The position numbers were made by a program, and so were the translations under genes. This document shows, piece by piece, positions 7,010 to 49,289 of a stretch of DNA of 64,000 nt. Every line of letters begins with the position of its first letter. Position 1 is the first letter of the stretch. The DNA is taken from contig CM120646.1 of NCBI GenBank assembly GCA_051362555.1, positions 1,984,001 through 2,048,000 on the forward strand. The letters are read 5' to 3'. Below the pieces are notes generated by a model, which had not been told where the DNA came from, did no database searches, and was given only the letters and a program-made list of their open reading frames with translations. This DNA comes from Lingula anatina (lineage: Eukaryota > Animalia > Brachiopoda).

Positions 7010-7124
7010 ATGGCGTACGATATTGTAGCGTTAACTTTAGTGATATTAGGATGGCTAGCAGGACTGGTTACCATGGATACTGAGCTACCCCGCGAATATG
7101 ACTACAGAATTATTTCCTATCAAG
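7010..7124 (+). CDS. SEMA5: Sema5 coding exon 1 (signal peptide)
   Basis: Acceptor ttctctttacAG at 6941-6942; AAAGATGG start; MAYDIVALTLVILGWLAGLVT hydrophobic leader; ends DYRIISYQ with donor G|GTAAGA, phase 1 matching exon 2; in-frame upstream stop at 6959-6961. Confidence 0.85.
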
Positions 7125-19100: not shown

Positions 19101-19269
19101 ATTGTGTAAAAAATCCTAGACTTGGGATTCCAAGATCTGAAATTGGTGGATTCTATTCCCATAGCCCAGATGCCACTGCTGATAGTGCACCTGTCACAGT
19201 AACAGGTTGTGAATAATGATTTTTGTGGGAAAATATATATACTAGTGTTGGAGAAAGTTGTATTTTAGC

Positions 19270-19359
<90 letters not shown>

Positions 19360-19569
19360 TCTCCCCCACACACACACACACACACAATGCACTTTCTCTG
19401 AAGGTTTTAACTCATTTATATCTGCTTTCATCTTCCCTTCTCCTTGTCCTGCATAACAAGCAATATGAAAAATGCTTAGTGTTGGCAAGACTTGACCACC
19501 CAAACCCACATCAATTTTCCTGTCAGTTGTCCACCTTAAAGGACAGAACTGGAACTAGCTTGTAAATGG

Positions 19570-19645
<76 letters not shown>

Positions 19646-28600: not shown

Positions 28601-31600
28601 TTGAAATTTTAAGTAGAGGCACAAATTGACTAAATGAGGCACCTTGTCCAGGGAACATGTCTGAGGTCATTTAAGAGTTGGCTTTGGGGTAATGTTTGTT
28701 GAAAAAGAAAAGTAGAGGAAATTTGGCAACTAAAAACCTTTCTGTGAAATGCTGTTATAAGCAGCATTGGTTTGTACTACATACTGTTAAAAAACAGGGA
28801 CTTGTGTTTGGAAGTGTTTTTTTTTAATTGTGCTCTTTGTTAGCTGTATAGTGTATTAAAAAAATAGCACATTGAATCAACAAAATAATTCAAAAGATGG
28901 TTTGCTAATGCCAAGCAATATTTTAGTTAATGTAATTAATGTAAGCAGATATATATTTAGAACAGCAGATGCATGTATGTGACTGGCTGTGCATTAAGAG
29001 TACAGACTGGTTCATCTTAGGCAGTTGATGTTGATTGGAAAAGAAGTCTTTTTGTTGATCTGCTTCAATGGGCAAAGCATAAAACGAAGTCTGACTTGAA
29101 GCATCAAATAGAAAATATCCAATTGAAGTGATTGCCTTTCCTCAGCTGTACTTTTGAACTCCTGCATACAAGTAATGTTAAGGTTGTCTGGAAACAAACC
29201 TTTTTCAGATTCAGAGATCCTAATCTTAAACCACTTTGTACTTAGGCATCTAATTGCTAAGGTCTGTATATGAAGTAGTCTTCATTGAAAGACAAAACTA
29301 GCTGGATTTTCTGGTGAAACAGTTGAAATATTTCATTTTAAGGTAATCTTGAGCATAGTGGTTATGAAATATTGTTCATTTGCATGCTCGAAAAAAAGCA
29401 GTTAATGTTGTTATTCAGAGGAAGATTGATATTCCGCTGAATGTAGTGTTTAGTAGTGTGCTCGGTAATCGGTTTCACCACAAGGGACCAAGATCAAAGT
29501 TCTGCCCATAAAATTCTTCAAGCCTTTTTGCTCTGATCCATTCATTCCTAAACCCCAGGGTTCTTGTAGCATTGGTTCTGCTGATCTGTGATTGTTTGGT
29601 AGGTTGTCATGGTAATTATGATGTCATTTACAAGCTTATAGTGCATCATATTATTTTTGTGCAACTTGCACATGCACACATATATGTATGCACGCATGCA
29701 CACACATATGCAAACACACCTTGGACCAGTGTAGAATTGGTTTAGTTTTTGTCGTTTTCAATGCATTTCATTTTTAATGATCACAGAACTGTTGGTTTTT
29801 AAGGCAGTAACAGTCGGCAGGTTTGTTGATATTGGTCTTGACATTTAAATTGGCACCAGTCTGCGACATGGGAGAGGAGGGAGTACACGCTTGTACTTGG
29901 GTCGTGCGCGCGACACACACGATAACATTTGGTTGTTACGGCAACACTGATTACAGTCGCATGCACGGGGTTAAGCAAAAGGTGACTCTGGTGGTTTTTA
30001 CAAGAGGCAAATATTTGAATAAGTTTGTCTTGAGGTTTTAGTTACCCTGGAAAAAGGGGAGATTTCTACGTGTAATGATTTTTTTTCAACATTTGGAGAC
30101 CATTTATCCCTTGTAAAAGTTGGAAACATGTATATCAGGTTTTGACTACTGTGGCGTTTGACTTTAGGTACAGGATTGTTTTAGGATGGTGAAATAGCAA
30201 AATGTCAACATCTTATGATTTATGTTTATTAAACTCTTTTTAACAAAGTAAATACCTGGGCATTTTATTTGAAAAAACAGGGCATCTGCTTAACCTAATT
30301 AACCAAGGGTGTAACATGATGTTTTTTTCTGCTTAAAGTATCAGACTGATTTCAAACTGAATCTGCCATCATTCTGATATTTTCATTCAATTGCAGTTGC
30401 CACAAAACAAGTCTGACCTAAACTTAACTTCTGTCATACTAAAAACCCTGTCTTTTATTTTGTCACAGGCACAACAGCTGCTCTCAACATTTCACGAAAC
30501 ATTTATCTTGAAGTTGTTCTTGTTTCAAGTTGTTCTTGTTTCGAAGACCCTGAGTTGTACTCTAAACTCAAACAGTGGTTCCAGAACATTAGCAAAAGGC
30601 TTATTTATGGCAACACAAACAACTTACTGTAGTTGGTAATTTTGTGTCTTCTTTTGAAAAGTTGGCAATTAGTGCCGCAGGCGTTAGCTGAAAGTGAACC
30701 AAAGTTTCGTGTAAAATGTATCTTTTGTTACAGGTAAATGTCTGCATTTGAGGTAGACACCACTTTGAAATAATCTTTTAATCTCCTTTGTTTGTTTAAA
30801 TCTGAAATTTGCTCCTCATTTGTGGTTTTGCTTTTAAAAAATGTCAATTTCAAATCCAAGCATTGGAATGTTGACCATGGCTTGTATTGCAACATAATGG
30901 AATAAAAAGAAGCAAATAAAAAATGGATCAGGACCTAACTTGTGAACTCCGATCTTCTCAGGTGGAAAAGCTGAGGGTGACTTTGAAATGGGACTCCTGA
31001 ATTGTTGTTCATGTGAGAGACATCCGAGGTGTTTACCTGAAAATCAAGGTTCCATTCACATGTGTCTTTATGTATAACTTATCTGTTCTACTACGGTTCT
31101 TCTGTTTTTCTTTTTGGGAGTATTGACGTACCAGATACGATCAGTGCTGTTCAATTCAATCCTTGTAGCCCTAGTTGCAGAAGTTGATTATTCTAAGTAG
31201 AAACAGTTGAACTGATCACCTGCTGTGGACCAAGCATGATGTAATGCAATCAACTTCATTTTCAACCACATGAGTGTAATGCACTAGATAAGCTGTAAGA
31301 TTTATTTGAGTATGTTGGTCAGTTTTGATTGCGAGAAGTTAAAAGTTGATTGCTTGACCACAGCATGCTGTTGTGCAATCAACATTTAATGAGTTCTGTG
31401 TGAATACCTCGAATGAGAACAGCAAGTAGGAGGTGCTCGGCCATGTGAATGAGACTACAGAGATCCTTTCTACAAGCTTGCTACACATTATATGATAGCA
31501 TTTCATCCTTGGCTAGTCAAAACGAACACAACAAAAGAGAGATGCTGGGCAATTTGAGCAAAATTTGAAACCAAGATCAATCATTTTGTCGTAACTTCTA

Positions 31601-32333
31601 CTCTTTCTATAATCTGTCACTGACAAGAGAGGTTTTTAATACTGCCAGTTTTGAAAAAAGCCCAAGTTATAAATGAGGAAAAATAAAACATTGCCCTTCC
31701 ATCTGACAGGGAGAAAAAATAACTGCATTATAAGTGCTATTCTAAGATTACTTTCTTCGTTAGGAAGACATCTAATGTTTCCCCATATAACAGAGAAAGC
31801 ACTATTTATGACCTCTTAATAAATAATGAGTCTTCATCATCTTTTCTTCTGTAAATGTGAACTTGCACCCATGAAAACATCAATTTTTTAACCAAAAAAA
31901 ATGTTTAACTGTCTCACTTTAACTTCATCTCAAAGCAAAGGGGAAAAATAACAATATGTCTACATTTTTGCCATATTGTGGAAACAGTATGACATTGATG
32001 TGGAAACATTTACAACTATTAGACACAGACTGATAGAGAACAACTAACCACCATCATCGTTCATCATGCTAAAATAAGTCTAAGAAAAGACAATTAAAAC
32101 CACATTTATTTTAGCCAATTTTGCTTGTATTTGCAATCAGCCAAAATGCTGCACCATGCTGCTTTGTAAATTGTGAGATATATTGAATGTATTCTCTATT
32201 ATCAATTTCTTATTCCAGATTTACAGTCAAGTTCTGCCAGCTACAGAACCTACAGAAACAACGACATCAAAGAATATATGGAATTAACATTAGATATCCC
32301 CAGAAGACAACTGATAGCTGGGGCACGGTAAGC

Positions 32334-32364
<31 letters not shown>

Positions 32365-35300
32365 GAGCAAGAGAGTGTGGAGATAGACAGAAAAACTTGT
32401 GACACTTTTTCCTGTGAAACTATCGAAGCTTCCCACAAACATTACAGTACTACTTAATTTTGAGAGTTTTGTTTTTGCCCATGAATAACTGTAAGTTAAC
32501 ATTGTGTGATCTCCTCACTGTGTATGTGAATATAGTCTAATAATGACATCAGAAAACCAGACAACAGTTCTATATTTTAGAGACTTTGATGAAAATATTT
32601 TATTTATTTTGGTGAAAATATTTTATTTATTTCCACTTTTGTATTATATTACAAAAATTTTTATTTTAATTTCAGAAACCATATTTTGAGATTATCGTTA
32701 GATAGCTTAGACGCCCTGGAGGTGGCGAAATGGGGCACTAAAAATGAGACCAGGGGACTTTGTATGGCCAAGGGACAGTCAGAGGTAGTATGACAACACC
32801 TCATCACATCATAAAAATCTTCTTGTCTTACTCGAAGAGAAAACCATTCATTCCACTAAAACAGGCGGAAAGAGTCGTGTATATTTCAGCAGCTGAATCT
32901 TCTTTTAAAAAAAGCAATTTAACTGGCTGAATTTCAAGTTTTAAGTTTTCACTGTGACTTGATAAAAGATTGAACAAGCAACTGAAAAAACTCCTGGTGT
33001 AGAGTAAATAAAACAAAGACTGAAATCACTTGCTATCAGTGAAAGCAGATGCGAGAAAAACAAGCATTTATTCATTGTTCCTTTCTTGTTTTGTTTTCAG
33101 GAAAACTGCCATAACTTTATCAAAGTATTGCTACGTCATGGGGACCAGTTGTTTGCATGTGGCACCAATGCTTTTTCACCAAAGTGTTCAGTAAGACAGG
33201 TAGGTCATAAAAAGTGCTGCTCCCTTGAATTTTTTTTCTGCTTATTTTGGAAAGACAAAAAAATCAGTGTTTTTCGAGACTTTCAAATAAGCATGTCTGT
33301 TTGTAGAAGAACTTCCAAAGAAACAGTAGAGGATACAGATTTAAAATACACACAAACTTAGAAAATTAGATTCCAAAAGAAAGGGAAAGAAAAGAAGGTT
33401 CAAAGTACGAAAATCAGATAAAAACAGCGACATCTGTCCCCTATTCTCCTTTGCTTTGCCCTAGTTTTAAACATTATGCCTCGAAGCAGCATCAACCATA
33501 ACTAACCCTAATAAACTGCAACGCCTCATAAAATCCTCCCCTGTTTTATTACATTTTCCTTTTAAAGGGCAGACGTGATTAGCTTTACAACAATAAACAG
33601 CATTTGGAGCTGATTTCTGCAAAGCACAGGCTAAAAGCCAGCTTTTGGTAACCTTAGCAGGCTCTGGATTGACTGGAGTTCTGGGACTACCTGGTTTGAA
33701 TTTTAAAACAGAATCTTTTTAAATGGATTAGGTTACTAAGTGCAAGGACTATAGACGTCTAAGGACTATAGACGTCTAAGGACTATAGACGTCTAAGGAC
33801 TATAGACGTTTCTTGAGGATGTAACATACATTTGAATGACATTTTAATCCACTTGGTGTTTTAGAAAAATTAGAATGTAGGAAGCATTGTTTCTGTTCTT
33901 TTTTGTGCCTTTTTCAAAGCTGTTTCAAAGAAAATATCAGGTCTGCACCCAGCAATTTCTAAGGGGAGGGGGTGGTTTAATAAAATCAGATCTCTTTTCC
34001 CCTTTGTTGATTCAACTTTTGAAATGCCGTAGAACTGGTATTGAAGTTAAATTAAGAGTGGCTCTTGGAAACCCCTCCTCCCGTTACACACATGCTGCTG
34101 AATACACAGTGATGACAGTGCTCCAAAGTTCCTTGAAGGACAGCCACAGCTGTTTTAAAGAAAAAAATGATAGCCCCTATATATAGTAGCAGCAAGAAGC
34201 TTCAAAGAAAATGTGCCTCTCAATCCTAGTAATTTATGGGACAGTTTCTTGATCACTCCCAAACCAACTAGCTCAAAACTGACTATTTTGTGCAATGATC
34301 CGTTTTAAAGTCGGCTCTTTTTTTCCAAACCCCAGATGCTTTTGATGGTAGAGGGTATGCCTCGGGATTTTTTGTTTTCTGTTTCTTCCAATTTCCTGTC
34401 ACTGATCCTCTTCAGAGTTCACAACCTGTAGGTTAAGCTCATCTTACAAAAAGACTGCTTTAGGCACATATGTTTCTGTGGATATTTTTTTATTTTTAAA
34501 TTCTGCAACACAAAAGCCACAATGATGAAGCTTTTACCAGAAGTCACAATTTCAGTGATACATCCAATGTAAGTTGGTGAATATTCAGAGAAATGTGTAT
34601 ATTTCTCCCCCCCCCCTCGCCTCCCCCTGCAAAGGATTATTCTGGAGAGCTTTTTTTGTTGTCACATGATATTTTTGCCAGCAAATGATAGGTTGAATCC
34701 CTTTGAAGAGAAACATGTGTTATCTGTAATTAAAAAATGCTCTGAAAAGATTATTGGGAACAGTTGTTGGTCTTTGGTCAACTGAAGAGTTTTTTATTGG
34801 AAGCAACTGTTTATTAAGTTCAAACTTGTTGTATGAGGGAATATCTTTTGCAGACTGCAATGCCCTTGGGTAATTACAAATAGGAGTTTTCCATTTCTCC
34901 TTTTTATTTTGTCATTTGAAAATAGGGTGTTCTTAAAATGGTTCTTATTTTTCATTGCGGAGGTGCTGGAATAAGCTGATTGGATGCCTGTGCATATGCA
35001 TCCTTTATTTGCACCCTCCACACATGCACTGTTGATATGTGGAACTGTGCACCATGAAAAAAAAAAAGATGAGAGACCTGCATAAGAATATATGAAACAG
35101 TACAGAACTGTCATAGTTATGGCATCAGTGAAGCTTAGCAGCAGGTGGCAATGACTTCTTCATCCTCTTTTTTCCACTGGAAGTGAATTTATTGCCACTT
35201 CTCAAGATGTTCTCAGTCATACTAAAGAGACCATACATCATGCTTGAAAAACAAAGTTAGCATTATGCAGATAATAAATCACAGACAAAAACCTCATTTG

Positions 35301-38300
35301 TCATGTCTGGGAACCCTGGATGGAAAATTGGAGCACAGAAAAGCAGCAGGACATGGAATCGGAGCTGACGGTCCAAAGAACAGGGCAATTTTTAGCTTTC
35401 AACGTTTGCTTCCAACCTTGCACCATGCAGATTGATCTTTTTTAGATAATTGTCCAAAGCCTTAATTTTTGGCCTTCTTCCATCAAAGAAGAAAGCATTT
35501 GGCTCCAATACAAAGTGATTTTAAAGCAGTTCCTCAGTTTTCCTAGAAGAGAAAGTAGCAACACTTAAATACACATTTTGGTCACTTTCCTTTTAACCAC
35601 CATAGAGAGTAAATTTCTTGTATTGCACTCTTTTCATGGCATTTTTAAAAAGAAGGAAGATGTCATTTGGTTCCAATAAAAATGGACTTAGAAACCATTT
35701 GACCCCCTGTAGGACAGAGTCATTGAAAACACTTGGATGAGAATGTCACTTGGTTTTCTTTCCTAGCCCAAACAGCTCACTGACATTTGATTTGAAAAGA
35801 TATATGGAAAACACTTGCTGAGGATGGATTTAAGTTTTCAAAACACGACCTCAAATGCCCATGCAGTTTGATTGTTTGGATCTGAAGTGAACTGAAGAAA
35901 AGTGGAAAACATAAAATTATGTTTTTGCCTTTTTGTCCATGAAATGTTATTCAGAGTCTTCCTCTCAGAGAATATACTAAATCTATTATCCTTAAATTCA
36001 ATGACCAGCATATGCTAGACACGATAGAATACACTTTTGTTAATTGATTACTAAAAAAAACTTGATTTAAATACAAATGTATGTGGATTTTACATTTAAA
36101 AAACTATTAAGAATTTGAAATTTTTAAACAACGATTTTATGAAATGTATTTTGCTGAATGATTGAAAAGAGGACATGGGAACATTTGTAGCTTTTCTAAG
36201 GACAAAGATAAGAATGGATAACAGCAATAACAAATTAAATAGAAGAGACAATTGCAGAAAGAATGGATAACAACAATAACAAATTAAATAGAAGCGACAA
36301 TTGGAGCTTCTATTTTTGTTGCCAGTGGCAGCAGGAGAGAAACAATTAAATTTCAGATATTGGTGCCCTTGGCATCGAGGCTTGTTTTCTTTTTACCAGT
36401 GCAGACTAATATAATTTGTTTAAAAACTTGTGTAGGCAAAAATCCCATGGAGAATTTTGTAGTCTGAAAACAATTTGAAAAATTGGGGTTCAACTGTCTG
36501 GGTTTGCTTTTCACCCCAAAAAAAAAGATTTACAGATCTGGTGATTTTTTATACTTTTATTTGTTAAAAACACATAAGTCACTTTTCAATAGTGACTTCA
36601 CAATTTTTATAATTATGCAGTAAGCATATATTGTATTCTTTTGTGAGATACCTAAAGTTTGGAGAGCTTAGGACAATTAATCCCTTTTTGTTTTGCTATT
36701 ACACATCTCTGATCATTTCTGTGTTGTCCCACTCCATATTGTCCCACTCTTTGCTATCCCACTCTTTATTATCCCACTATGAGTTGTCCTGCTTCGTTAA
36801 CTTACCATAATTCAAATGTCTGGGGCACACGCAAAAGGTACCAATCCAATTTTTATATGAGTTTAATTCATAATGCCCATTTTTATTAGTATGCAGGACC
36901 GTTTTAATCACTTCTAATGATGGGTTAATGTTTTTTGTAACGGGAAGAGGCATGAACAGTGTGGTTATCCCCGAGGCTAAACAGATGTGAAAATGATCTG
37001 CAACAGATTAATTATTAATATGAATTGCATTTGGGTTATTTAAATAGATTAGAATTTTTTACATTTAAGTGAAGACATGATATATTGGAAAGTAGTTTAG
37101 AATTCAAGTTGAATTTATATACTACATTTATGTACAATTAAAAAAAATATTGTCCTATTTGTAAGTTTCTTTCTCTGAGAACATAAAGCAGGGAAGGACA
37201 TAAATGTAAACACCACTGCACTTTTTATATCTCAATAAAAAAACATCTTAACCAGTTTACATTTAAGTCTGTATATTTACTGTTGCAGCTAACCAACTTG
37301 GGCGAGGTGACCAGGACTGAAGATGGTGCCTCTAAGTGCCCCTACAATCCTCACCACAACGCCACCACGTTAATGACATCTGAAGGTGATGTCTACGCTG
37401 CCTCCGTGATGGATTTTGCTGCCCGTGATGTTGCAATTTATCGCAATACAGGACCTTCACCTGTTCTTCGCACCGTGCAATATAACTCAAAATGGCTCAA
37501 TGGTATGGTTTGTTGAAATGGATGGTTGTGTGATTTCACTTTCAAAATGTCCTTTTCAAAATTTTACAAATTCAGTTCACATTATTCAAGAATATTTGTG
37601 TTTACTCATTGATTTCATTTTTGTTTGTAATAAATGTTATTGAATTCAAAACTTTTTAGCAATATCCATGATGTCTATTTTGCTGTATACCTCTAGCTAT
37701 ATATTAATGCTTTAAGTTGTAATTTATTCTTCATGAATCAGGATTTTGAAATAAATATTTAAAAATTATATCATTTTTTTCCACAGAGCCAGTGTTTGTG
37801 TCATCTTATGAGATAGGAGAGTTGGTATTTTTCTTCTTCCGAGAAACCGCAGCAGAATATATTAACTGTGGGAAGGTATAAAATCTGACACCATTAATGG
37901 TTCTGACACCATTAATCTGCTATTGATATGATTATGGTGATTGAACCATATTTTGTCACTGCTCTTTATTGAGGAAAGTCAATGAATTCTGTATGAAAAT
38001 TGTTAACTTACTTTTAATTAACTATTTCTTGAAGAAATGCAAACTTTGTTCACAAAACTTATTTTCCCATCTTGTCTTACAGAGCATCTACCCACGAGTG
38101 GCAAAAGTGTGCAAGAATGACAAAGGAGGGAAATTTCTGTGGAAGGATAACTGGACAACTTTCCAAAAGGCTCGCTTGAACTGTTCCATGCCTGGGGACT
38201 ATCCATTCTATTACAATGAACTCCAGAGCACATATTATCTCCAGGAGCAGGAACTGGTGTACATGGTCTTCACAACCCCTGTGTAAGTCATCTATAATGT

Positions 38301-38492
38301 GTGTGACTTTAAAAGGGGAGAGGTACCCCCAACCCACCCACCTATCTACCCCACTCACCCCATTCTTTGAGGGGGGTACGCCCAATTTACCCTCCTGACC
38401 ACCCATCCATCAATCCCCAATTGAAGGGGGGGGGGGGGAAACCCACCTAACCATCGACCCACCCATCCCTTGCCACCCTCTAACCCCCCCCA

Positions 38493-38541
<49 letters not shown>

Positions 38542-41500
38542 CTTTCTATATGCGACGATTTGCAACCAGTTTTAGTGTGTTGCATCAGTCACCTCAGAAG
38601 TTGACATTTTAGAATGGTTGACATTTTCTCACATCAGCTGGTGACAAGGGTTCGTGTCACAGAGCACCTGGTGTCACATGAATCATGGGAGCTTTGGTGA
38701 CATCTGGGACTTAGTGTGTGAAGTCTGTTCACATAAGGGCTGTCTTAGGCCACATTCAGAGCAGTGGACTAACTGGTCCCAGGATCAAATATGGCCAACC
38801 CACTTGAATACTTCCCCACGTGGAACCTGTTCAGTGTCTATTAGCAGATTAGATGCCAGGTTTTTTAGTGGGTTGCCATATTTGACCCACATACTAGTCA
38901 GTCCACTGTTCTGAAGGCAACCTTAAAACATATAAATGATTCAGCTATGCAAAGTGTTAACAGTTGATAAATTAACCGGGCATTTAGATGTCTGTAACAT
39001 AATGTGAACGTATCACACAGGCTATGTTTGATTTAAAAGAATATCTGAAAATAATTCTGTTAGGATAAATCTTTTTAAAGACAGATTTGCTCATTTATTT
39101 GTTTAATCCTGATGGCTTTTTTGCCACAATTACTTAGTTGTAAAGGTGTCCTCAACAAAACAATGGTTGAAGAAAACTGTTTGATTAAAATCTGGTTGAG
39201 TTTATTGAATAATTACTGCATTTCTAATCAATTTTATTGAAATTTATTCAGTAAATGCAGTATTTCTAATCAATTTCATTATTTTAAAAGTTTATTGAAG
39301 AAATAGCACACTTATTACAATTTTTAAAAAGTTTATTTAGATGTTATGTGTTGTATAAGTACTGTTTGAGTTCCTTATGTAATTACTGTATTTGTATTTT
39401 ACAGGAGCAGTATGTATGGTTCGGCAGTGTGTGTATATAATATGACAGCATTCCAGAAGGCCTTTGAAGGTCCATTTAAGTACCAAGAAAGCTCTAAGCA
39501 TGCTTGGGTGCAGCATGAAAACCCATTCCCTAATTACAGGGTCAGTGCAGTGATTTAGTATTATTATTATTATTGTTATAATATGATTTCCTAAACTGTG
39601 GAGGAGGGCTGAAATATTGCCAATAAGTACATTTTTTTCTTTATTTTCTGAATTTATCAACTGTTCAGGAAGTTTTAAAAAGTTGTGATTGAATATTTAG
39701 CACATTTCATGCTTTGCATATTAAAAAATGGTAAAAAATACTATATCCTGCCTTTATGACATCTTTTATTATGTTTTGAAAAATAAAATTTTCTTTTACA
39801 GTGTCAGTCAAACAAGGAACGAGAAGCAGGAATGTCACAGACTGACATTGGCAATGCACAGAAATACCAAATGATGGACAGCGCTGTTCAGCCAGTTACT
39901 CTGCACCCCTTTGCCACTGCTGCCAATGAAAGGTAGCAACAGAGCTGTCTACATTTCTATACTTATTACTTTCTATAATGCTTAAGAATCTTTGACTCAG
40001 ACCAGTTAATTTTCCACAGTCACTCTCAATGACTTTTTTGTCACCATTTCATTTAATTTGGTTAATTTTCATTGTGATTATATGATATTTTAGAATATGG
40101 ATTTGTTTTGGGAAAAAAATAGAAACAACTTTTTCAACAACTATTGAATAGTATAATTCCTGATATATAGGTGGAGCCACATTGTGGTAGACACAGTACA
40201 CTCCAAACACAGGACCCAGTTCCAAGTGATGTTCGTGGTAAACATGGAAGGAGTTTTGAAGAAAATTGTCCATTTGCCAAACAGCACGGAGGCGTGTGTT
40301 TTAGAAGAGATTAATATTTTCCCTAAGGGACAGAATCGCCCTGTTTACAAGATGGAATTGTATAATGTAAGGGGACCAGGTTTTTTATATTTGTATGAAA
40401 TCCAAGTGGAGCTGAATATTTTCAAATTTTGAAATATTTGAATGAGTGATGCATTTTTCTCAACAGAATTCAAGTGGGGTAATCAGTAATTAATTATTGT
40501 ATTCTTCGTGGTCTTTGAAATTAAATTAAGTACCTATTTGGCATCTGTTATTTCTACATCTATTCATACTTTCAGGGCAATATTTATATATCTACCAGTC
40601 AAGAAATAATCAAAATTCAAGTCCACAGATGTCACAGGTTCAAATCACGAAGGTATGTTTGTATTGGAGTTACAGGTAAATGTTATAGATTTTTAAATAA
40701 AGGAAATATGATTGATATATTCTTAGGTTAGATTTTGTCTCAAATTGACTCCCTAAAAAGTATTAATTTACAGTTCTATCATCCAAAAACAGCCATTTCA
40801 ATTTAGTATAATAAGGGCTACCATTATCATTTTGTTTATGAAGGTTATTCATAAAAATATAATATTTCTATGAACATAAGGGACAGATCCAGAAATATTT
40901 TCTAACGTCTTCCAAATTATCTTTGTTAATCCATCTTCCATTTTTGACCATCCTCTGACAAATAAATAAATAAATAAATAAAATGCCCATTTTTGAAAAA
41001 TTCTTCACTGTCTTCAAAGAGACCCAGAAGACGGCCTCCCTCCACCCCTGAACATGTCCTCTGAGTTTATGACTCTCACGTGTTGCAGACAATGATGAAA
41101 ATGCCAACCATCTAACAAGGGGAAATGGCAAATGACTCAATTTTAACCCAAAATTATTTATTATTATTATATATACATAATGATTTATGTTTTATGTCCA
41201 GAACTTGCACGCGGTCTATGGACCCCTACTGTGGCTGGAGCAGTAAACACAACCAATGCAGTCCGCCGCCTCGGGGAAACACCCGCGCTCACTTCTGGCA
41301 CCAGAGACCGATCAACCAGTGTCCTATTATGAATGATCCAAGTAAGTTCACGGTCAGAAAATCAGGAGAGATTTCATAAGTCTGTTTTAACTGGAGGTTT
41401 GTTGAAATACGATATATTTGTTTTCTTCTATTTCTTGAATACTGAATATAAATGTGAATACTGAATATGTGAAGTGGATATTTTGAGAATTTCGCAAAGG

Positions 41501-44500
41501 TTATACTATTATTGTTCACCTGAAATAAAAATGTCTCCTGTCCTCAGTTAATGGAGAGTGGTCTGAATGGACAGCGTGGTCCAGTTGTGGTCAGGTTGGA
41601 GAGTATAGCTCAGGTGACCAATGCCAGTGCAGGAGTAGGTCATGTGACAAGCCAGCGCCCATGTTTGGGGGGCGAGACTGCCCTGGATCTAGTATACAAG
41701 TGACTAACTGTACAAGTAAGAAACCTATTTTAAATCAAATTGAGATTCCATCACAGATTCCTTTGGTATGTGTTAATATATGATTTGCCTAGAAGCTTGT
41801 ATTTGTTTGGTAGATATGAAGTAGTAACATCTGATTTTAGTTTTGAAAAATTTTTTACATTCATAAAAAGACAAACTAAGGTGGTTGAAAATGTTATCTC
41901 CAAAGTTGGCAGAGGAAAATAAACTGAAGGAATCATCATAAATTGGATACTTTATTTATAATTGTGTTATTTTGATTTCAGCTCACGGAGGATGGACACC
42001 ATGGTCCCCATGGACTGCGTGCTCGCAGTCGTGTGGTACAGCCATGCGTTCACGTATGCGGTCATGCAGCAATCCAGCACCCCAGTTTGGTGGGCGTGTG
42101 TGTATTGGCCAGGAAAGAATTGATGAGAATTGTGTAAATAATCCACCATGTCCAGGTAAGCAGACAATACATAAGTAACAGGTCCTTAGCCAGAATTTGC
42201 AAAGAGAGGGGTTCTAGTTCTGATAAAGTGGACCTTAAACCATGAATCTTTGCACCTAGGTCAAATTTTACCCAGAGCGGACCTTTTTCCAGCAAAAAAG
42301 GTGGTTTGTTGGATTGATTGGAATCTATGGAGTTGATATATTGACTGTGCTGTGGATTCAACATGATCCAATATTGTGATGTTTACAAAGATATTTTTAA
42401 ATCAGATGCAGTTTGATTCAATTGAGGCTATCACAGCCTTTATTACTGTGCATAAACGATGCTTTCATATTCATGGTTTCTCCCCTTTTTTCAGTCCCAA
42501 CAAAAATTCCTTTAGATGGGGGATGGACTCGCTGGACAGAATGGGAGGCCTGCACTGCAGAATGCGGTGGTGGTTTCCAGAGGCGTTATCGTTCCTGTAC
42601 CAACCCACCTCCACAAAATGGTGGTGTCCATTGTGATGGCAATAATGAACAATGGAGGACATGTAATAGTGGTACTTGCAATGGTGAGTTAGCAGATTTT
42701 GTTTGGATAATAATGTATTGCAAGGAATTTTTGTAAGTTGCTATCTATTAGCTTTCTGGTAGTTTTGGCATGCCCTCCCAAGTATAATATTTGAAAATTT
42801 GATTGAAGTCATGATTGTGAAATAAGGCATGATTTTAATATCTTTGAGATATTATTCAGTAAATTTTATTCTGAATGATGAAATATATTTAAATATTAGC
42901 CAACTATGGATTCGATTTAAAAATAAAGATGCCTTTCTCTAAGTTTTTCCTCTATCTCTGCAGAAATCCGTAAGTCCAGTGCCTGGACGGGATGGGTGAT
43001 TCGTAACATAACCAATGGTGGCTACATCCAGCAACGATTCCAGTTCATGTGCAGGGCCAGCATTCCTGTGGACAGTGCTCTCCAGGAGCCAACGATACGC
43101 ATGCAAGAACGATTCTGCTTAGAGAGTGGTGAAGACTGCACTGACTCAGGTGAGCTCCATACTAACCCCTCCCCCCTCCCGCCCACGCAGGTGATAAAAC
43201 ACTATTGTAAGCAGTGGTATAATGTTTTAGAGGGTTTTTGCAAATGTGGGGTGGTGGGAAACTACTTGGCGTGTGAAAAATGTGACTTTTTAATGAAAAA
43301 CACTGAGACTCTTATCTCAAAGGAGGAAGGAAAGAATTCCATTAGGAAGGGCAGTGTTGAAGACGTTGGTAATATGCAAAAGAAATCCGATCATATTGCC
43401 TCAATAACTCAAAAGCAACCTGAGATACTGGATGATACAAAACTGACTTCACAGACATACCTTTCTACCCCAATGCCAATTGACCCAGCTCAAAACTCTT
43501 TCAATTCCTCACACATAACAAACAAATCCCTGTCCACATTCAAGAAAGACAATAAAGAGACTAATCAATCTTTACAAAAATATTCTCAAGTGCTTGAGAC
43601 CAAGGACAAGGAGAAAGATATTTACATTGAGAGATATTCTGGGGAAGATAAAAAAAGAGATCATATTATTGACATTCAAAGTGGGAATGATCTTGTAGAA
43701 GACAGAGAGGAGGATGTCATAAATATAGATGGCAGTGGTAGCAATGAGGAGCCAGATCCTGTGTTAGAGGGTACAGATGGCAGTAGTAATGATGAGGAGA
43801 CAGATGCTGAAATTGATGTTTTGGGACAGAATAGCGGGACAACTGATGATCATATTGATGATGATAATGAAAATGACAAATTTAACAGTGGCTCTGGGGA
43901 TGATAAAACCTAACTTCTTAATGAATTTTAGGAAAAAAGTCCATACCATATCAGTATTTTAAGAGATAGAACTGAAAATGTGGTTCAACGTAATATCTTA
44001 TGTAAAGTTTTGATACAAGCACCATGTTAATACATACCAAAGCAGTTGCCATAATTTATTTCCAGCAAAATATTTGAGTACATTCAGTTTGTATTGGTAG
44101 CCTGAGCAGTATTAAGACAAAGGGATTGTTGTTATTTTACCAATGTTTTCCTGTGGGTTATCTGTGTGATTATACCTAGTAAATTTAACTGTTTGTGCTT
44201 GTTCATGAAATGACAAAATAAGAGCACCTTCCACTTTTTACTGCAGTTTCACACCAAGATTGTATTTGCAAGAAAAAATGATATTGATATTCATAAGCAT
44301 GCAAGTCTTAGAGCTGGTCTCAAAGAAAAACCATTGAATGTGCTTTTTCTGTATTGTTGAAATAGTCCAGAAATGGCAGGATTGGGAAGCAATAAGCTAC
44401 GTAAAATATGCTTATCTTATTAGAAAAGAATTCTAGTTCTCTTAAAAAACGGATTTTTACCATAAATCCAAAGTAATGCAATTACAACTGTTACAAAAAA

Positions 44501-47500
44501 AAAAACTGTATATTTAAATTATTAATTGTCAATTTCTCAGTTTTATTAAGATATTTGTTTAATTTGTTTACAATTGATGTCAGTGACATAGACGGTGCAT
44601 GGGATATGTGATTCTAAGAGGATGAGTGTGTGTGTTCTTGACCCTGTCTCATATCCAATATCCCCTTCAGACCCCCTTCCCATAATTCCACCATCAACCA
44701 CTCAAGATGTCACACAGTGGCGACCCCTATTTCAAGACACCTCCAAGCCACACCTGTTTGGTCTTCCGCCCTCTTGTCCTTTCCAAGAAATTCCCATTGG
44801 TCTGTTTTACGAACCCTTGTGATATCTCAAGATTTCAAGATTAGCATGTTCTGCTAAACTGCATGGGGTTTAGAGTAGGCAAACTAAACACTTTGTACAG
44901 GCGGTCGCTATTACAACCAGTCAAACAAGGTTCAATTGTTTAGATTTCATTTGGCTGGACTCTTCAATTTTGCACGCTTCATTTATCCGACACAAATGCT
45001 TGGATTTTTTAAGAAGCATTCAGGAAATTTGCCAAAATATACTCAAAGCAAATTAGTTAAAGAAAGAATTTTGGATACAACCATAATGAAAATAATACTG
45101 TTACCCATGGTGTGGGCAGAAGTGTGTTGAATAATTATCAAAAAAGCCATTAAATTTGAATCTTTTTTGGCTGTTTGTCACATAACACATGCTTCTTAGT
45201 ATCACATATCCTTAAGATCCTGTCACCAGTGTACATCTGTTTCTCTGTCAGTGAGTTCTCAATGTTCAGTGATTTGAAGTAGATGTGTATATGGTCTTTT
45301 TTCACATGGTTTGGAATTTTTGTGAATAAATTAATTTTAAATCTACATATGATGTTAGACCTGGACTGGAGTTGCTGCAGTTTAATGTTGAAATTCAAGT
45401 TGAAGTTGTTTTTTAATTGGCATATCTGATTGGTCAAAAGAGCAGGCAGCTATCAGAAGTGCCCAATCAGATCTTTTGTAATAACTTGCTAAGAATTCCG
45501 GCAAGACAAGCTTTAAAGGTAAGAGACACTTAGTCTCTAGGCATGACATAGCAAATTATGAAATTTGAAATGTTAGATTTTATGCAACACTAACAGAATG
45601 GAGCAGCTGCATAGGAAAATACACTGCAGAGTGATATTCTTCACATGCATCGGAATGTTTGATGGCTATTTTATTCAGTATTTATTTATTTATAAACAAT
45701 CCCAAACCCTTATAATTTTGCACCATTTTAATGACTGCCTGTGCCAAAATTAGTTTGCATGTGATTATGCTACCTTCCTATGTGACTTATAACCTTTGTT
45801 ATAGGTTAATCAATTGTATTTAAGATGGATGATAGATGGTTTAGAATTTATTCTTGTTATATTTGTAGAGTGCAAAAAGTATTTTTAGACACTTTCTTTG
45901 AATATACTAGAAAAGGTCATGAGTTTAGTCAGATGTTTTAGAATGTCAAATCCATTTATGGTTGGTTTGTTCAGAAATAGTTGTGTTCAGGGCATTATTT
46001 TTTGTCAGAATATCGCGAGTTTTGTAATCAATTAGCTTAGTGACTTACGTGGGACATGTTAAGCTGCATTATGAATTTATTTCTGTTTGTTTGATTATTT
46101 ATTAGAAATTTTTTATTGTTGATCATCAAGACAGAGTTCTGCCTGATGATGGTAGTTAATTTTGGATGGGGCATACCAGATTGTAAAAAATTGAGAAACA
46201 ATTAGGGGTGGCTTGAAGACTTTGGGCATACGAGGAAAGATCCTGAAAATGAGATTCATGTAGTTTCGACAATTTATTCCCTTTGCCTTATTTGGAAATG
46301 AGAATTGTTTTGAAAACAATTTATCTTGTGATTGATCTGTCTGAAGAAAACTTTGTTAAAGCAAGAAAAGGGAGGAGGAGTTGTATAAGTTTCTTAATTG
46401 TCATATTAGGTTTACTCATTATTGCATGGCTTTCCCATTAACAGTAAAGTAGACAGAGTTACCATAACACCCCCCTCCCCCCCCCCCCCAAAAAAAAAAG
46501 GTGACAAAAGAAAAAAAGAAATCGTAAATTGAACTCAAGAATACCACCTGTACTAATAATAGTAATATACCTACATTAAAAAAAACAGTCGTTAGACTGG
46601 GAATGTTTTTAACAGATCATGGGTCTTTTGTGTGTTATCAGGAAAGTCATTATTATATTTTGTGAATGGGATTGTCTTTTTGTTCACATTTTGACCCATG
46701 GCATAACTAAATCTTACCACTTGAAGGAAAATTGCAAAAACTTTTAAGATTGTGAACTTTCTTATCTTGGCACTTGATAACACAAGTAGATCCGATTTCC
46801 AGTCTAAAATATCCCTGCCTAAACAGGCCCTTGTAGTATTATAAAATACTGTGCATGATTGCTTTGTCATTTAATTCCATTGATGTTATCATTCAGTTTG
46901 ACCAGGTCCAAGCTATGGTCAGTTAACAGTTTGTGGACAGTTGTACTAAAGAATGACTATTACGTGTGTGGAACATTACTATTTATGAAGTGTTGTTCAG
47001 TGCATGAAGTGGCTATGATGTATACCTGGGGAAAAGTGTGTGAGGATGTCTGACATTCAGTTGATATTAAGCAAAAGGTTACCATGGAGTCCATGCCGAG
47101 TCCTTCTTTTATATCCCCACTTGGCCTTTCTTGATCCCGATTTTGCTGAAAGTAAAGTTTAGTACAAAATAGTGATTTATTGTAATCTCTGTATTTTTTT
47201 TTTTTTTTTTTTTTTTTTGTTTTAAAATTAATTGTGATGCTACATCTTCATTGTGTATATCTGCTCCTGTTCCCCCATCCACCCAACCCACCCACCCCCA
47301 TCCCTACTCCCCCCCCCCCCAAAAAAAATCCAAAAATACATGAAAAAATTTTGAAATGTATTAATTGTATGAGTGCATGTAGGCTGATTGGATATCTAAT
47401 CTTAAACATAAAATCAAACAATATTGTTTAATATTTCAGCTCAAAGGCCAAATGTTAATGGCAGCTGGTCTCCTTGGAAGCCTTGGTCGGAATGCAATGC

Positions 47501-49289
47501 TGAATGCAATGGCGGAATTCAACGACGAGAACGCTCATGCACAAACCCTCCTCCTAGTGGTAATGGGAAAGATTGTGTTGGTTTGCCAATAGAGACACGA
47601 GAGTGCAATACACATTCTTGCAAAGGTACTTTTTGGTTACTATCAACAAAGGATGTTATATATACCTGCTTTTCATTGATTAATTGATTGTTTAGTTGAT
47701 TGATTGTTTATAGGTGAAATTGTGCAGTCTGAAGAAATGTGCACATGTAATATATTTGAAGTACAGCATTACACTTATAACATATTTAACATAATCAATA
47801 TGTAAGGTTAAATTTATTAGTCCAAGATGTTAAAAAAGATGATTTATGGCACAATGCGGGTGTGTATGATTGGGTGTTGTTTTTTTTTTATTTGTGAATG
47901 TATTCTAAATTATCACGATAAAAATTGCCACAATATTATAATGCTTCATTAATCCTGCAAAACTGCACCTCTTGCTAAGCAGCTCCCTCTATCTTCTATA
48001 TTTCCAGGCTCTTGGTCTTGCTGGTCCGATTTTAGTGCATGTAGTGTCACATGTGGAAGAGGTCGGCGGTTTCGCATGCGCACATGTAGTAGTAGTGTCG
48101 CTGGAAAAACATACACTATCCCATGCGCGGGCAGTGATAAAGAGGAAGAGGCATGTGAAATGCCTGCATGCGGTACCGTGCTGCGTATGTATAATATACT
48201 GTTATATATTAAATATTTATGTGCGTGTGTGTGTGTGTGTAATAATGAAATATATTTTGCGTTTAAATTAGGAATGTCTAAAATAGAATAAGTTTGAAAT
48301 GCATGATAGGTAGACTTACAATATATTTATCATAAAGGTATTATTATCTGTTACAATCTTGTGTATATATGTCATATGATGATAACTTGATACATTTTTT
48401 TTACAGAAGAAGATGGCTGGGAGATGTGGACGGCATGGGGCCCATGTACATCAGATCAAAAACAAGTCAGGCGGCGTACTTGTACATTGGTTCTCGGGTG
48501 CGAGGGCCCAGAGGAAGAAACCAGGATGTGTAATGAAATACGTAAGTATATATTAAACGTGGTGCAGAACTGAGTGTCATCATAATGAGTAGTACCTGTA
48601 AATTTATATATCACACTCTTAGCAGTTTGTAACTATTATTGCAGATGGATGTAAACATTTTTTTTTTCAATTTTTAGAAAGTCATTTAAAATGAAGAAAC
48701 TGAACTTAAATTTCTAAAACTTTATTTAAGAATATTATAGATACATGTTTTTTCAAATGAAATTATAAATACATACAAAAGATGCCAGCCTTCGTTGCTT
48801 CAATTTTCATTTTTTTTTAGGTCTGCTTTCATCTCCAAGCATTGATCATTTAGCTTAAATGTTATTTTCATTATCTCTAATTTGTACTTAATCGATTTGA
48901 TTTTAGCCAACATGGCGGCAGTTATGGGTGGACAGGAGAATGGAATCCAAGTCGTCCATGTTGTTGTCGTTGCTCTGTCTGCATTCCTTTTGGGTGGAGT
49001 TATTAGCATTGGGCTTTTCCTGTATATTCGACATTTCCGAAGAAGCAAAGAGGAAATAAAGCAGAACAAGCAAAATAAAATGCTTTATGACAGCAAGCCT
49101 CACTTACATCCCTTCCCATCATTCCCATCAAACATGGATGTCACACAACAAAACGGGAACAATCCTCGATATTACAGCACAGGATCGCTGACTTTAAATA
49201 ATAAAGATAAAATGACAGTTAAAGAGGCCACACTAAAAAGAACATCTCTCATGAGAACTAATTTGTCTTTAACAGACCAGGAGTTATAG
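7010..49289 (+). CDS. SEMA5: Semaphorin-5 (SEMA5A/5B/Sema5c-like), transmembrane isoform, 20 coding exons, 1066 aa
   Basis: Manual splicing of 20 GT-AG exons gives one open frame of 3201 nt. It contains a signal peptide, Sema motifs ([66 protein letters not shown]), PSI (DPYCGW), seven TSP1 repeats (WxxWxxC...RxRxC), a TM helix and a cytoplasmic tail. Sema+PSI+7 TSR+TM is diagnostic of class 5. Confidence 0.96.
15315..15726. repeat. Recent 206-bp tandem duplication in Sema5 intron 1
   Basis: 15315-15520 and 15521-15726 differ at only a handful of positions. Confidence 0.92.
19274..19386. repeat. (CT)n-(CA)n compound microsatellite
   Basis: Directly visible. Confidence 0.95.
19571..19643. 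repeat. (TG)n microsatellite
   Basis: Directly visible, about 36 units. Confidence 0.95.
32219..32327 (+). CDS. SEMA5: Sema5 coding exon 2 (Sema domain start)
   Basis: ttccAG acceptor, DLQSSSASYRTYRNNDIKEYMELTLDIPRRQLIAGAR, donor GTAAGC; phases 1 to 2. Confidence 0.9.
32333..32375. repeat. (AG)n microsatellite immediately after the exon-2 donor
   Basis: Directly visible. Confidence 0.9.
32676..32784 (+). CDS. SEMA5: Sema5 coding exon 3
   Basis: tttcAG acceptor, NHILRLSLDSLDALEVAKWGTKNETRGLCMAKGQSE, donor GTAGTA; phases 2 to 0. Confidence 0.92.
33101..33199 (+). CDS. SEMA5: Sema5 coding exon 4
   Basis: [33 protein letters not shown]; ttttcAG / GTAGGT. Confidence 0.95.
33744..33809. repeat. 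17-bp minisatellite, about 4 copies (AAGGACTATAGACGTCT)
   Basis: Three exact copies plus a 15-nt fourth copy. Confidence 0.95.
36211..36303. repeat. 49-bp-period tandem duplication
   Basis: AGAATGGATAACA.CAATAACAAATTAAATAGAAG.GACAATTG occurs twice. Confidence 0.9.
37289..37502 (+). CDS. SEMA5: Sema5 coding exon 5
   Basis: LTNLGEVTRTEDGASKCPYNPHHNAT...LRTVQYNSKWLN; ttgcAG / GTATGG; phases 0 to 1. Confidence 0.95.
37787..37875 (+). CDS. SEMA5: Sema5 coding exon 6
   Basis: EPVFVSSYEIGELVFFFFRETAAEYINCGK; ccacAG / GTATAA. Confidence 0.95.
38083..38282 (+). CDS. SEMA5: Sema5 coding exon 7
   Basis: [16 protein letters not shown]...[26 protein letters not shown]...FTTP; ttacAG / GTAAGT. Confidence 0.96.
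38315..38539. repeat. C-rich low-complexity tract followed by (CA)n
   Basis: CCCA/CCAC-rich blocks with G runs, then (CA)n at 38495-38539. Confidence 0.85.
39405..39540 (+). CDS. SEMA5: Sema5 coding exon 8
   Basis: SSMYGSAVCVYNMTAFQKAFEGPFKYQESSKHAW...; ttacAG / GTCAGT. Confidence 0.94.
39802..39932 (+). CDS. SEMA5: Sema5 coding exon 9
   Basis: CQSNKEREAGMSQTDIGNAQKYQMMDSAVQP...; ttacAG / GTAGCA. Confidence 0.92.
40171..40366 (+). CDS. SEMA5: Sema5 coding exon 10
   Basis: WSHIVVDTV...VMFVVNMEGVLKKIV...CVLEEI...MELYN; atatAG / GTAAGG. Confidence 0.92.
40576..40652 (+). CDS. SEMA5: Sema5 coding exon 11 (end of Sema, start of PSI)
   Basis: GNIYISTSQEIIKIQVHRCHRFKSR; tttcAG / GTATGT. Confidence 0.92.
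41202..41341 (+). CDS. SEMA5: Sema5 coding exon 12 (PSI domain)
   Basis: TCTRSMDPYCGWSSKHNQC...WHQRPINQCP; gtccAG / GTAAGT. Confidence 0.95.
41548..41715 (+). CDS. SEMA5: Sema5 coding exon 13 (TSP1 repeat 1)
   Basis: INGEWSEWTAWSSC...CQCRSRSCDKPAPMFGGRDCPGSSIQVTNCT; symmetric phase-1 exon. Confidence 0.95.
41982..42155 (+). CDS. SEMA5: Sema5 coding exon 14 (TSP1 repeat 2)
   Basis: HGGWTPWSPWTACSQSCGTAMRSRMRSCSNPAPQFGGRVC...PPCP; phase 1-1. Confidence 0.96.
42179..42310 (+). mobile_element. Diverged copy of the 62290 element in Sema5 intron 14
   Basis: Shares blocks GCCAG(G)AATTT, TGGACCTT..ACCATGAA and ACCTAG...AAATTTTACCCAGAG...GACCTTTTT with 62290-62415. Confidence 0.65.
42495..42683 (+). 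CDS. SEMA5: Sema5 coding exon 15 (TSP1 repeat 3)
   Basis: DGGWTRWTEWEACTAECGGGFQRRYRSCTNPPPQNGG...CNSGTCN; phase 1-1. Confidence 0.96.
42964..43149 (+). CDS. SEMA5: Sema5 coding exon 16 (atypical TSP1 repeat 4)
   Basis: EIRKSSAWTGWVIRNITNGGYIQQRFQFMCRA...ERFCLESGEDCTDS resembles the atypical WTPW...NGGHYEQRFRYTCKA repeat of vertebrate SEMA5A; ctgcAG / GTGAGC; phase 1-1. Confidence 0.93.
43150..43913 (+). CDS. Predicted alternative terminal extension of exon 16 (secreted Sema5 isoform with acidic Ser-Gly tail)
   Basis: Exon-16 frame stays open for 764 nt past the donor to TAA at 43911-43913. The sequence is purine-rich and coding-like in an otherwise stop-rich intron, with an in-frame 48-nt internal duplication and no hydrophobic helix. 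Confidence 0.7.
47440..47625 (+). CDS. SEMA5: Sema5 coding exon 17 (TSP1 repeat 5)
   Basis: VNGSWSPWKPWSECNAECNGGIQRRERSCTNPPP...ECNTHSCK; phase 1-1. Confidence 0.96.
48008..48172 (+). CDS. SEMA5: Sema5 coding exon 18 (TSP1 repeat 6)
   Basis: GSWSCWSDFSACSVTCGRGRRFRMRTC...CEMPAC; ttccAG / GTACCG; phase 1-1. Confidence 0.94.
48407..48541 (+). CDS. SEMA5: Sema5 coding exon 19 (TSP1 repeat 7)
   Basis: EDGWEMWTAWGPCTSDQKQVRRRTC...CEGPEEETRMC; ttacAG / GTAAGT; phase 1-1. Confidence 0.94.
48907..49289 (+). CDS. SEMA5: Sema5 terminal coding exon (TM helix and cytoplasmic tail)
   Basis: ttttAG acceptor in phase 1; VVHVVVVALSAFLLGGVISIGLFLYI TM helix followed by basic RHFRR; ends TDQEL-TAG. Confidence 0.92.

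What the first reader, a model, noticed from the sequence alone, without database searches (positions are those of the whole stretch)
42964..43913. Hidden secreted, proteoglycan-like Semaphorin-5 isoform encoded by read-through of the exon-16 donor
Seen: the frame of TSR4 (exon 16) continues for about 254 codons into intron 16 with no stop, whereas other introns of this gene close within tens of codons. The extension is modular: a 5-Cys cluster (HYCKQWYNVLEGFCKCGVVGNYLACEKC), a K/S/T-rich spacer with three N-glycosylation sequons (NSS, NKS, NQS), and a D/E-rich end with six Ser-Gly dipeptides (YSGED, QSGND, DGSGSNEE, NSGTTDD, NSGSGDD), with no TM helix. Known: Ser-Gly in acidic context is the xylosylation/glycosaminoglycan attachment consensus, and vertebrate SEMA5A switches between attractive and inhibitory activity by binding heparan versus chondroitin sulfate through its TSRs. 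Inference: alternative last-exon use, analogous to the secreted/membrane IgM switch, gives a 1031-aa secreted Sema-PSI-TSR1-4 protein carrying its own GAG chains in place of TSR5-7/TM/cytoplasmic tail. I know of no described semaphorin-proteoglycan isoform, but I could not search for one.
Basis: partly seen in the sequence, partly recalled or inferred. Interest (0 to 1): 0.88.

Follow-up and report, generated by a model that had tools for sequence, protein, structure and literature searches.

The report
Ancient secreted Semaphorin-5 isoform, acidic tail
This invertebrate's Semaphorin-5 gene can read past one splice site to encode a form with no membrane anchor, likely secreted, whose small five-cysteine cap is shared with clams and snails, and here alone that cap is followed by a long acidic tail predicted (untested) to carry sugar chains.

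Summary
Observation confirmed: the exon-16 frame runs 254 codons into intron 16 (the other 18 introns: 1-53) and gives a 1031-aa protein with no membrane helix. RNA reads cover the extension in 3 of 8 runs, at about 15-28% of exon-16 depth, and fall off near 45.2 kb. The poly(A) site itself was not seen.

The first 45 residues are a five-cysteine cap. The same cap ends full-length, membrane-less Sema5 proteins (754-847 aa) of bivalves, gastropods and a cephalopod-linked cluster, with the same TCAG|GTGAG donor in two related loci. These include a spliced cDNA and an automatic RefSeq isoform (Mercenaria X2 beside membrane X1). In molluscs the cap is strongly basic and the protein stops right after it. 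Here the cap is near-neutral and followed by a 209-aa tail with no homologue found.

The secreted isoform is therefore well supported and old. The proteoglycan part is lineage-specific and untested: 1 of 6 Ser-Gly sites fits a strict motif. No paper on the isoform turned up in 9 searches. New variant of a known kind; interest 0.62.

The parts
7010..42683 (+). Sema5 exons 1-15 (hydrophobic N-terminal signal-type segment, Sema, PSI, TSR1-3), shared by both isoforms
   Evidence: 20-exon GT-AG model translates without internal stop; 44-50% identity over about 770 aa to named and unnamed Sema5 proteins; joints 41715>41982 and 42682>42963 seen in reads
42964..43149 (+). Exon 16 = TSR4 (dimerisation and GAG-binding repeat)
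   Evidence: PF23260 E 6e-15; match to human Sema5A TSR3-4 structure 8ckg, E 1.9e-6; inter-chain Cys (human C733) kept, K734 to R, R747 to T, R749 kept
43146..43155 (+). Switch point: 5' donor TCAG|GTGAG, either spliced to exon 17 or read through (G-E-L)
   Evidence: Spliced joint to 47440 in 4 of 4 runs; same TCAG|GTGAG in genomic locus L001 and cDNA L002; Mercenaria X1 and X2 diverge at the same residue
43149..43283 (+). Conserved five-Cys cap (C-x10-C-x-C-x8-C-x2-C), 45 aa; predicted helix plus beta-hairpin at low confidence
   Evidence: Five Cys, Gly and Leu invariant in 27 of 27 aligned rows; a cap HMM built from 19 mollusc-type rows only ranks this ORF first of 2167 six-frame window segments (E 6.7e-7, next 0.76); AF2 pLDDT 64 for the L001 cap
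43284..43613 (+). Lineage-specific K/S/T-rich spacer with three N-glycosylation sequons (43503, 43521, 43563)
   Evidence: Sequence; no homologue
43614..43913 (+). Acidic C-terminal region (33 D/E in 99 aa) with six Ser-Gly (Ser codons at 43638, 43680, 43734, 43833, 43887, 43893), then stop TAA; contains a 38-nt internal duplication (43724/43772)
   Evidence: six Ser-Gly reached by 0 of 20000 local shuffles (partly inflated by the duplication and the SGSG pair); only 43734 fits E/D-G/A-S-G
43914..45330 (+). Likely 3' UTR of the short isoform, with candidate poly(A) signals ATTAAA 45149 and AATAAA 45325
   Evidence: Mean depth 43950-45229 versus 45230-47149: X8 1.51/0.08, X9 2.83/0.45, X6 1.04/0.51, X5 0.68/0.16; no 3'-end pile-up listed (table 6)
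47440..49289 (+). Exons 17-20 (TSR5-7, TM helix, cytoplasmic tail): membrane isoform only
   Evidence: Model; joints 47623>48006, 48184>48407 and 48541>48907 in reads

Best explanation
The gene makes two proteins from one switch at the exon-16 donor: splicing gives the 1070-aa membrane Semaphorin-5, and read-through, likely ending at a poly(A) site inside intron 16, gives a 1031-aa form with no membrane helix that is predicted to be secreted. The short form keeps Sema-PSI-TSR1-4, so it likely still dimerises through TSR4 and binds plexin (inferred). It ends in an old five-cysteine cap shared with molluscs. In molluscs the cap is polybasic and terminal, and most likely tethers the released semaphorin to matrix or cell-surface GAGs, much as the basic tail of class-3 semaphorins does (inferred; class-3 comparison from own knowledge). 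In this lineage the cap has lost most of its positive charge and has gained a 209-aa disordered, glycosylation-prone tail. The acidic Ser-Gly end likely accepts at least one GAG chain (about even odds), which would turn a GAG-binding soluble cue into a polyanionic one with different range and partners. Shown: ORF, read coverage, conserved switch and cap. Inferred: poly(A) site, secretion, dimer, matrix binding, GAG attachment. Odds by step: real coding isoform about 0.9; whole 209-aa tail translated about 0.8; GAG on the tail about 0.5.
For: ORF improbable by chance, including the 209 codons after the cap alone (P about 2e-6), with codon-position bias. Reads cover the ORF in X6 (sense strand only), X8 and X9 at mean depth 2.7-3.3, against exon 16 at 11-18 and the distal intron at 0.08-0.51. 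All 4 listed indels among reads lie after the stop codon and none in the ORF (weak, about 0.16 by chance). 12 of 37 phmmer hits from 1.84 billion representatives carry the cap motif after TSR4. 14 of 14 hits are 754-845-aa Sema5 proteins ending in the cap with no TM; 7 of them carry species names (Mercenaria, Ruditapes, Sinanodonta, Nucella, Babylonia, Pomacea, Bulinus), and Lymnaea is added. L002 is a spliced 4066-nt cDNA that ends its ORF in the cap and continues into about 1 kb of UTR; L001 is genomic DNA with the same donor read through. Mercenaria has both X1 (1091 aa, TM) and X2 (841 aa, cap). The cap has 8-13 K/R per 45 aa in 17 of 17 mollusc-type rows against 4 here. The inter-chain Cys of TSR4 is invariant in 23 of 23 rows (role from PMC10978931).
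Against: No extension reads in X5 at 82% likeness, and next to none in X1, X2, X4 and X7 at 95%. The 95% cut-off can drop divergent alleles, but most X4 reads were 99% alike and X4 still showed none. Coverage is patchy (X6 is near zero at 43630-43949; X8 is only 0.47 just after the donor), depth is low, and the number of reads crossing the donor is known only by subtraction (at most about 7 in X9, 4 in X6, 0 in X8 and X5). No poly(A) end was seen, and an A11 run at 44495 could prime oligo-dT on pre-mRNA. The tail beyond the cap has no homologue, and 3 of the 4 read variants shown in it change the amino acid. Only 1 of 6 Ser-Gly fits the strict motif, and the review PMC8418075 warns that motifs alone are ambiguous. 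One of three key basic residues of the human TSR4 GAG site is lost (R747 to T).
Confidence: 0.75

Rival explanations
1. The secreted isoform is real, but only the cap matters: the 209-aa tail is a neutral extension after loss of the ancestral stop, an acidic disordered appendage with no GAG and no special role.
For: Molluscan forms stop 1-5 residues after the cap; unnamed homologues show unrelated tails of 4-135 aa; no tail homologue; 3 of 4 shown variants are non-synonymous; 5 of 6 Ser-Gly miss the strict motif.
Against: 209 stop-free codons are unlikely for former UTR (P about 2e-6); codon-position bias; Ser-Gly clustering reached by 0 of 20000 local shuffles, each site with 3-5 acidic neighbours.
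Confidence: 0.35
2. In this species the reads are unspliced or intron-retaining pre-mRNA and the cap is a decaying relic of an isoform that still works in molluscs.
Against: All five Cys plus Gly and Leu are kept; the ORF is intact for 254 codons; in X8 depth falls about 40-fold from the ORF (3.21) to the distal intron (0.08); reads also lie downstream of the A11 run.
Confidence: 0.1
3. The extension is a transposon or other foreign coding fragment that happens to lie in frame.
For: A genome-wide repeat check was not possible.
Against: The first 45 codons are homologous, at the same donor, to the ends of molluscan Sema5; no credible Pfam hit; no second copy in the window; reads are few and, in stranded run X6, sense only.
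Confidence: 0.03

Closest known systems
Class-5 semaphorins (human SEMA5A/5B, Drosophila Sema-5c, Capitella and Aplysia Sema5A)
   Same: Sema-PSI-7 TSR-TM layout in the spliced form; TSR4 with the inter-chain Cys and part of the basic GAG site described for human Sema5A (PMC10978931, abstract, section 6 and passages read).
   Different: In the passages seen, class 5 is described as transmembrane (PMC6374515), and soluble vertebrate Sema5B arises by proteolysis (PMC2696441, passages). Here a TM-less form is gene-encoded, ends after TSR4 and has its own C-terminal module.
Mercenaria mercenaria 'semaphorin-5A-like isoform X2' (XP_053408315.1) and molluscan 754-847-aa Sema5 models
   Same: Same switch residue after TSR4, same five-Cys cap, no TM.
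   Different: They stop right after a polybasic cap; this one has a near-neutral cap and a 209-aa acidic Ser-Gly tail. They are automatic models or unnamed assemblies with no description found.
Soluble isoforms from intronic polyadenylation with composite terminal exons (secreted IgM heavy chain, sFLT1, soluble neuropilin-1; recalled, not tested here)
   Same: Read-through of a 5' donor removes TM and cytoplasmic exons and adds an intron-encoded end.
   Different: Those add short tails; here the intron-encoded part holds a cysteine module conserved across molluscan classes plus a long tail.
Part-time proteoglycans made by splicing (CD44 exon v3; PMC2199889, search listing only)
   Same: An isoform-specific segment supplies Ser-Gly sites in acidic context.
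   Different: GAG attachment is proven there and only predicted here; CD44v3 stays in the membrane.
Class-3 semaphorins (secreted, basic Cys-containing tail; own knowledge)
   Same: Works like: a secreted semaphorin with a basic, Cys-bearing C-terminus (fits the molluscan cap).
   Different: No Ig domain, has TSRs, and no homology of the tail was tested or found; not a member.

Membership tests
Class-5 semaphorin gene | Sema and PSI domains followed by TSP-1 repeats including the Sema5-type TSR4 | tested here: met
   PF23260 on exon 16; full-length blastp to named Sema5 proteins, E 0.0; Pfam layout confirmed on the homologue P0182
Class-5 semaphorin gene | Seven TSRs, TM helix and cytoplasmic tail (spliced form) | tested here: met
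   Exons 13-19 each encode one TSR-type repeat by inspection; hydropathy 2.57 at residue 962
Class-5 semaphorin (membrane protein) | TM anchor in the read-through form | tested here: not met
   Maximum hydropathy 0.74 in the tail; the short form is a variant isoform, not a canonical class-5 protein
Intronic-polyadenylation soluble isoform | In-frame read-through of a 5' donor that is also used for splicing | tested here: met
   Joint 43149>47440 in 4 of 4 runs; depth just past the donor in 3 of 4; same donor read through in L001 and L002
Intronic-polyadenylation soluble isoform | Cleavage and poly(A) site inside the intron | tested here: inconclusive
   Depth falls after about 45.2 kb, next to ATTAAA 45149 and AATAAA 45325, but no 3'-end pile-up is listed
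Proteoglycan core protein | Ser-Gly with nearby acidic residues | tested here: met
   Six sites with 3-5 D/E within 7 residues; 1 of 6 fits E/D-G/A-S-G (motif from PMC8418075)
Proteoglycan core protein | Covalent GAG chain on serine | not testable with these tools
   Needs glycoproteomics or a lyase gel shift
Any catalogued domain family (for the five-Cys cap) | Profile or fold match | tested here: inconclusive
   No Pfam family at E up to 1 for two cap sequences; best PDB sequence E 0.19; Foldseek best E 9.6 on a pLDDT-64 model; the wide structural search of the cap alone could not be run

The most novel reading that the evidence does not exclude
Lophotrochozoans have an undescribed, Cambrian-age secreted Semaphorin-5 made by intron read-through and capped by a new five-cysteine module, and this lineage has flipped its chemistry: a polybasic GAG-binding end became a GAG-bearing proteoglycan end. 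The semaphorin would carry its own heparan or chondroitin chains, able to occupy the TSR4 site of itself or of the membrane isoform and so pre-set attraction versus repulsion by RNA processing.
Probability: 0.25. Interest if true: 0.85.

Novelty: new variant of a known kind. Interest (0 to 1): 0.62.

Why it matters
Class-5 semaphorins are treated as membrane cues whose effect is set by outside GAGs binding TSR4. A gene-encoded soluble form, kept across bivalves, gastropods and this more distant lineage, means these animals can switch the cue from contact-dependent to diffusible by RNA processing. It also exposes a small conserved cysteine module that matched no Pfam family here. If the acidic tail is GAG-modified, it would be a natural semaphorin-proteoglycan and a direct test of how GAG type controls Sema5 signalling. 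Practically, some mollusc annotations list the short form under the plain name 'semaphorin-5A-like', so studies may be mixing up two different proteins.

Tried and rejected
The first read lay at 95% likeness showed almost no extension coverage; the second, on other runs at 82%, did, so the two are not directly comparable. The word-index search with exon 16 plus tail against 553-2000-aa proteins found 0 of 2131 candidates. A Sema-exon search gave 296 hits, best 120 listed; none of the long ones had an acidic tail. ESM Atlas: no usable hit for the tail and only TSP1 leads below 0.8 for a cap-containing stretch. Pfam's Cyclin_C_2 hit on the tail (E 0.039) is rejected as below cut-off. The AF2 model of TSR4 plus cap (pLDDT 62) gave no Foldseek match at E 0.001 and best Z 4.7, covering residues 1-68 only. 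The cap-only model gave no match. The complex-prediction tool and the wide fold search of the cap alone were not available, so dimer formation and the fold of the cap stay open. A profile search of PDB with alignment A4 was swamped by the Sema domain. Earlier scan findings: none. Transposon origin and chance ORF were rejected.

Full report
1. Observation. The window holds a complete Semaphorin-5 gene on the + strand. The frame stays open for 254 codons into intron 16, against 1-53 for the other 18 introns. With the gene's own intronic stop rate this has P about 1e-7; the other five frames contain 8-40 stops. The five cysteines, three sequons, six Ser-Gly pairs and lack of a hydrophobic helix are confirmed. 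The extension has no second copy in the window. No genome is held, so a wider repeat check is missing.

2. Transcription. Nine RNA runs under the same species label were listed and eight were laid. At 95% likeness (X1, X2, X4, X7) exons were covered thinly and the bins 43408-44009 were empty apart from 0.06 in X7. The reads differ from the window at many synonymous sites, including five in the last 30 nt of exon 16 shown, so a second lay used 82% on X5, X6, X8 and X9. The canonical splice 43149>47440 appears in 4 of 4. The extension ORF is covered in 3 of 4: mean depth 2.66 (X6, sense strand only), 3.21 (X8) and 3.34 (X9), against exon 16 at 18.2, 11.3 and 12.6; X5 has none. Depth continues to about 45.2 kb and then drops (distal intron 0.08 in X8, 0.45 in X9, 0.51 in X6), next to ATTAAA 45149 and AATAAA 45325. 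No 3'-end pile-up was listed. Reads crossing the donor are known only by subtraction (at most about 7 in X9 and 4 in X6). All four listed indels lie after the stop codon, which is weak support. Against: X4, whose reads are mostly 99% alike, and X5 show no extension; coverage is patchy; an A11 run at 44495 could allow internal priming. The reads fit a minor, sample-dependent isoform but do not prove its 3' end.

3. Conservation is the decisive evidence. phmmer of exon 16 plus tail against 1.84 billion representatives gave 37 hits. The best ones align through TSR4 and on to residue 108, the end of the cysteine cluster. A motif [FY]C-x-C-x8-C-x2-C follows TSR4 in 12 of the 37; it is absent from all 17 rows with a vertebrate-like TSR4 (my label, by sequence) and from the other 8. 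Searching with the end of one 840-aa hit returned 14 proteins of 754-845 aa; all 14 end 1-5 residues after the motif and lack a TM helix. Seven carry names: Mercenaria mercenaria 'semaphorin-5A-like isoform X2', Ruditapes, Sinanodonta, Nucella, Babylonia, Pomacea and Bulinus. Cluster look-up adds Lymnaea and links one cluster, seen on 112 contigs, to a cuttlefish Sema5 fragment (that fragment itself does not reach the cap). Mercenaria also has the 1091-aa membrane isoform X1, which diverges from X2 at the residue matching this window's donor. A metagenome scan confirmed 2 loci among 140 pattern matches. L001 is intron-containing genomic DNA in which the donor TCAG|GTGAG is read through into the cap and a stop. 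L002 is a spliced 4066-nt cDNA whose ORF ends in the cap and is followed by about 1 kb of UTR. All five cysteines, a glycine and a leucine are invariant in 27 of 27 aligned rows including the window. A cap HMM built only from 19 mollusc-type rows picks this ORF first among 2167 window segments (E 6.7e-7; next 0.76) and also scores unnamed homologues that have long inserts between the first and second cysteine. In a 24-row tree the window protein lies outside the bivalve-gastropod-cephalopod clade (100/99), its own position being weakly supported. The isoform therefore likely predates the split of those molluscan classes (Cambrian; own knowledge), and the source is likely another lophotrochozoan (inference).

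4. What is special here. The molluscan cap has 8-13 K/R in 45 residues (17 of 17 rows); here it has 4 K/R and 3 D/E. After it come 209 more codons (P about 2e-6 without a stop): a K/S/T-rich spacer with three sequons and an end with 33 D/E in 99 residues and six Ser-Gly. No relative of this tail was found. Ser-Gly near acidic clusters is the general GAG attachment context (PMC8418075, passages; PMC13405426, abstract). Only the DGSG site at 43734 fits the strict nematode motif E/D-G/A-S-G, and that review says motifs alone are ambiguous. Three of the four read variants shown in the tail change the residue (112 further variant rows were not shown).

5. Mechanism. Shown: alternative use of one donor, a TM-less ORF, a conserved cap. 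Inferred: cleavage and polyadenylation in intron 16; secretion through the shared N-terminal hydrophobic segment; dimerisation, since in human Sema5A TSR4 forms a disulphide-linked, domain-swapped dimer that carries the only effective GAG site (PMC10978931, section 6 and passages) and that cysteine is invariant in 23 of 23 rows. The GAG site is partly kept here (K734 to R, R749 kept, R747 to T). AlphaFold gives the cap a helix plus beta-hairpin at low confidence (pLDDT 64), with no match in Pfam or PDB. The odd fifth cysteine could link chains or bind metal; this is untested. The most likely role is a released Sema5 cue or decoy, held in matrix by a basic cap in molluscs, and in this lineage made polyanionic and, at about even odds, GAG-bearing.

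6. Known versus new. Nine literature searches in the open-access library found no description of a gene-encoded secreted Sema5 isoform or of the cap; subscription papers are not covered. The survey PMC6374515 (passages) lists one Sema5A each for Capitella and Aplysia without such a form. Vertebrate Sema5B is released by proteolysis (PMC2696441, passages). A cricket transcriptome paper mentions further Sema5 isoforms without detail (PMC6040699, passages), and PMC10084454 (passages) added nothing. I did not open the supplements of these papers, which could list isoforms. The short form does exist as automatic database models. Intronic read-through to make soluble receptors is a known mechanism (recalled examples). 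Verdict: a real new variant of a known kind. The secreted isoform with its conserved cap is well supported (about 0.9); the proteoglycan tail is a lineage-specific, untested addition (about 0.5). Interest 0.62.

Noticed in passing
P0162, P0163: In two short gastropod-type ORFs the cap is preceded by non-TSR4 sequence, suggesting the cap is a separate exon with its own acceptor in some snails, rather than a read-through.
   Followed up: no
P0161, P0126, P0173: These continue past the usual stop with a Trp (likely TGA read as W by the gene caller). Two different gastropod-type sequences share a similar peptide after it, which could reflect conserved UTR or stop-codon read-through.
   Followed up: no
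P0127-P0129, P0131, P0132, P0137, P0152: Unnamed homologues keep the cap cysteines but have long, variable inserts after the first cysteine (one lacks it), and one has a 135-aa basic tail: the C-terminus of this isoform evolves freely around a fixed cysteine core.
   Followed up: partly
window 54865-56814 (-): Intronless 649-codon ORF of a rhodopsin-family GPCR (7tm_1, E 5e-25) with an unusually long region between the matched helices, convergent with the Sema5 gene.
   Followed up: no
window 42250-42298: A short intronic element in intron 14 draws many partly matching RNA reads, typical of a dispersed repeat.
   Followed up: no
window 42964-43149 and 47440-47625: Reads under the same species label differ from the window at many, nearly all synonymous, sites (12 of 13 shown in exon 16): very high polymorphism or cryptic species.
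   Followed up: partly
window 60767-61390 (-): A 207-codon ORF with no credible Pfam match.
   Followed up: no
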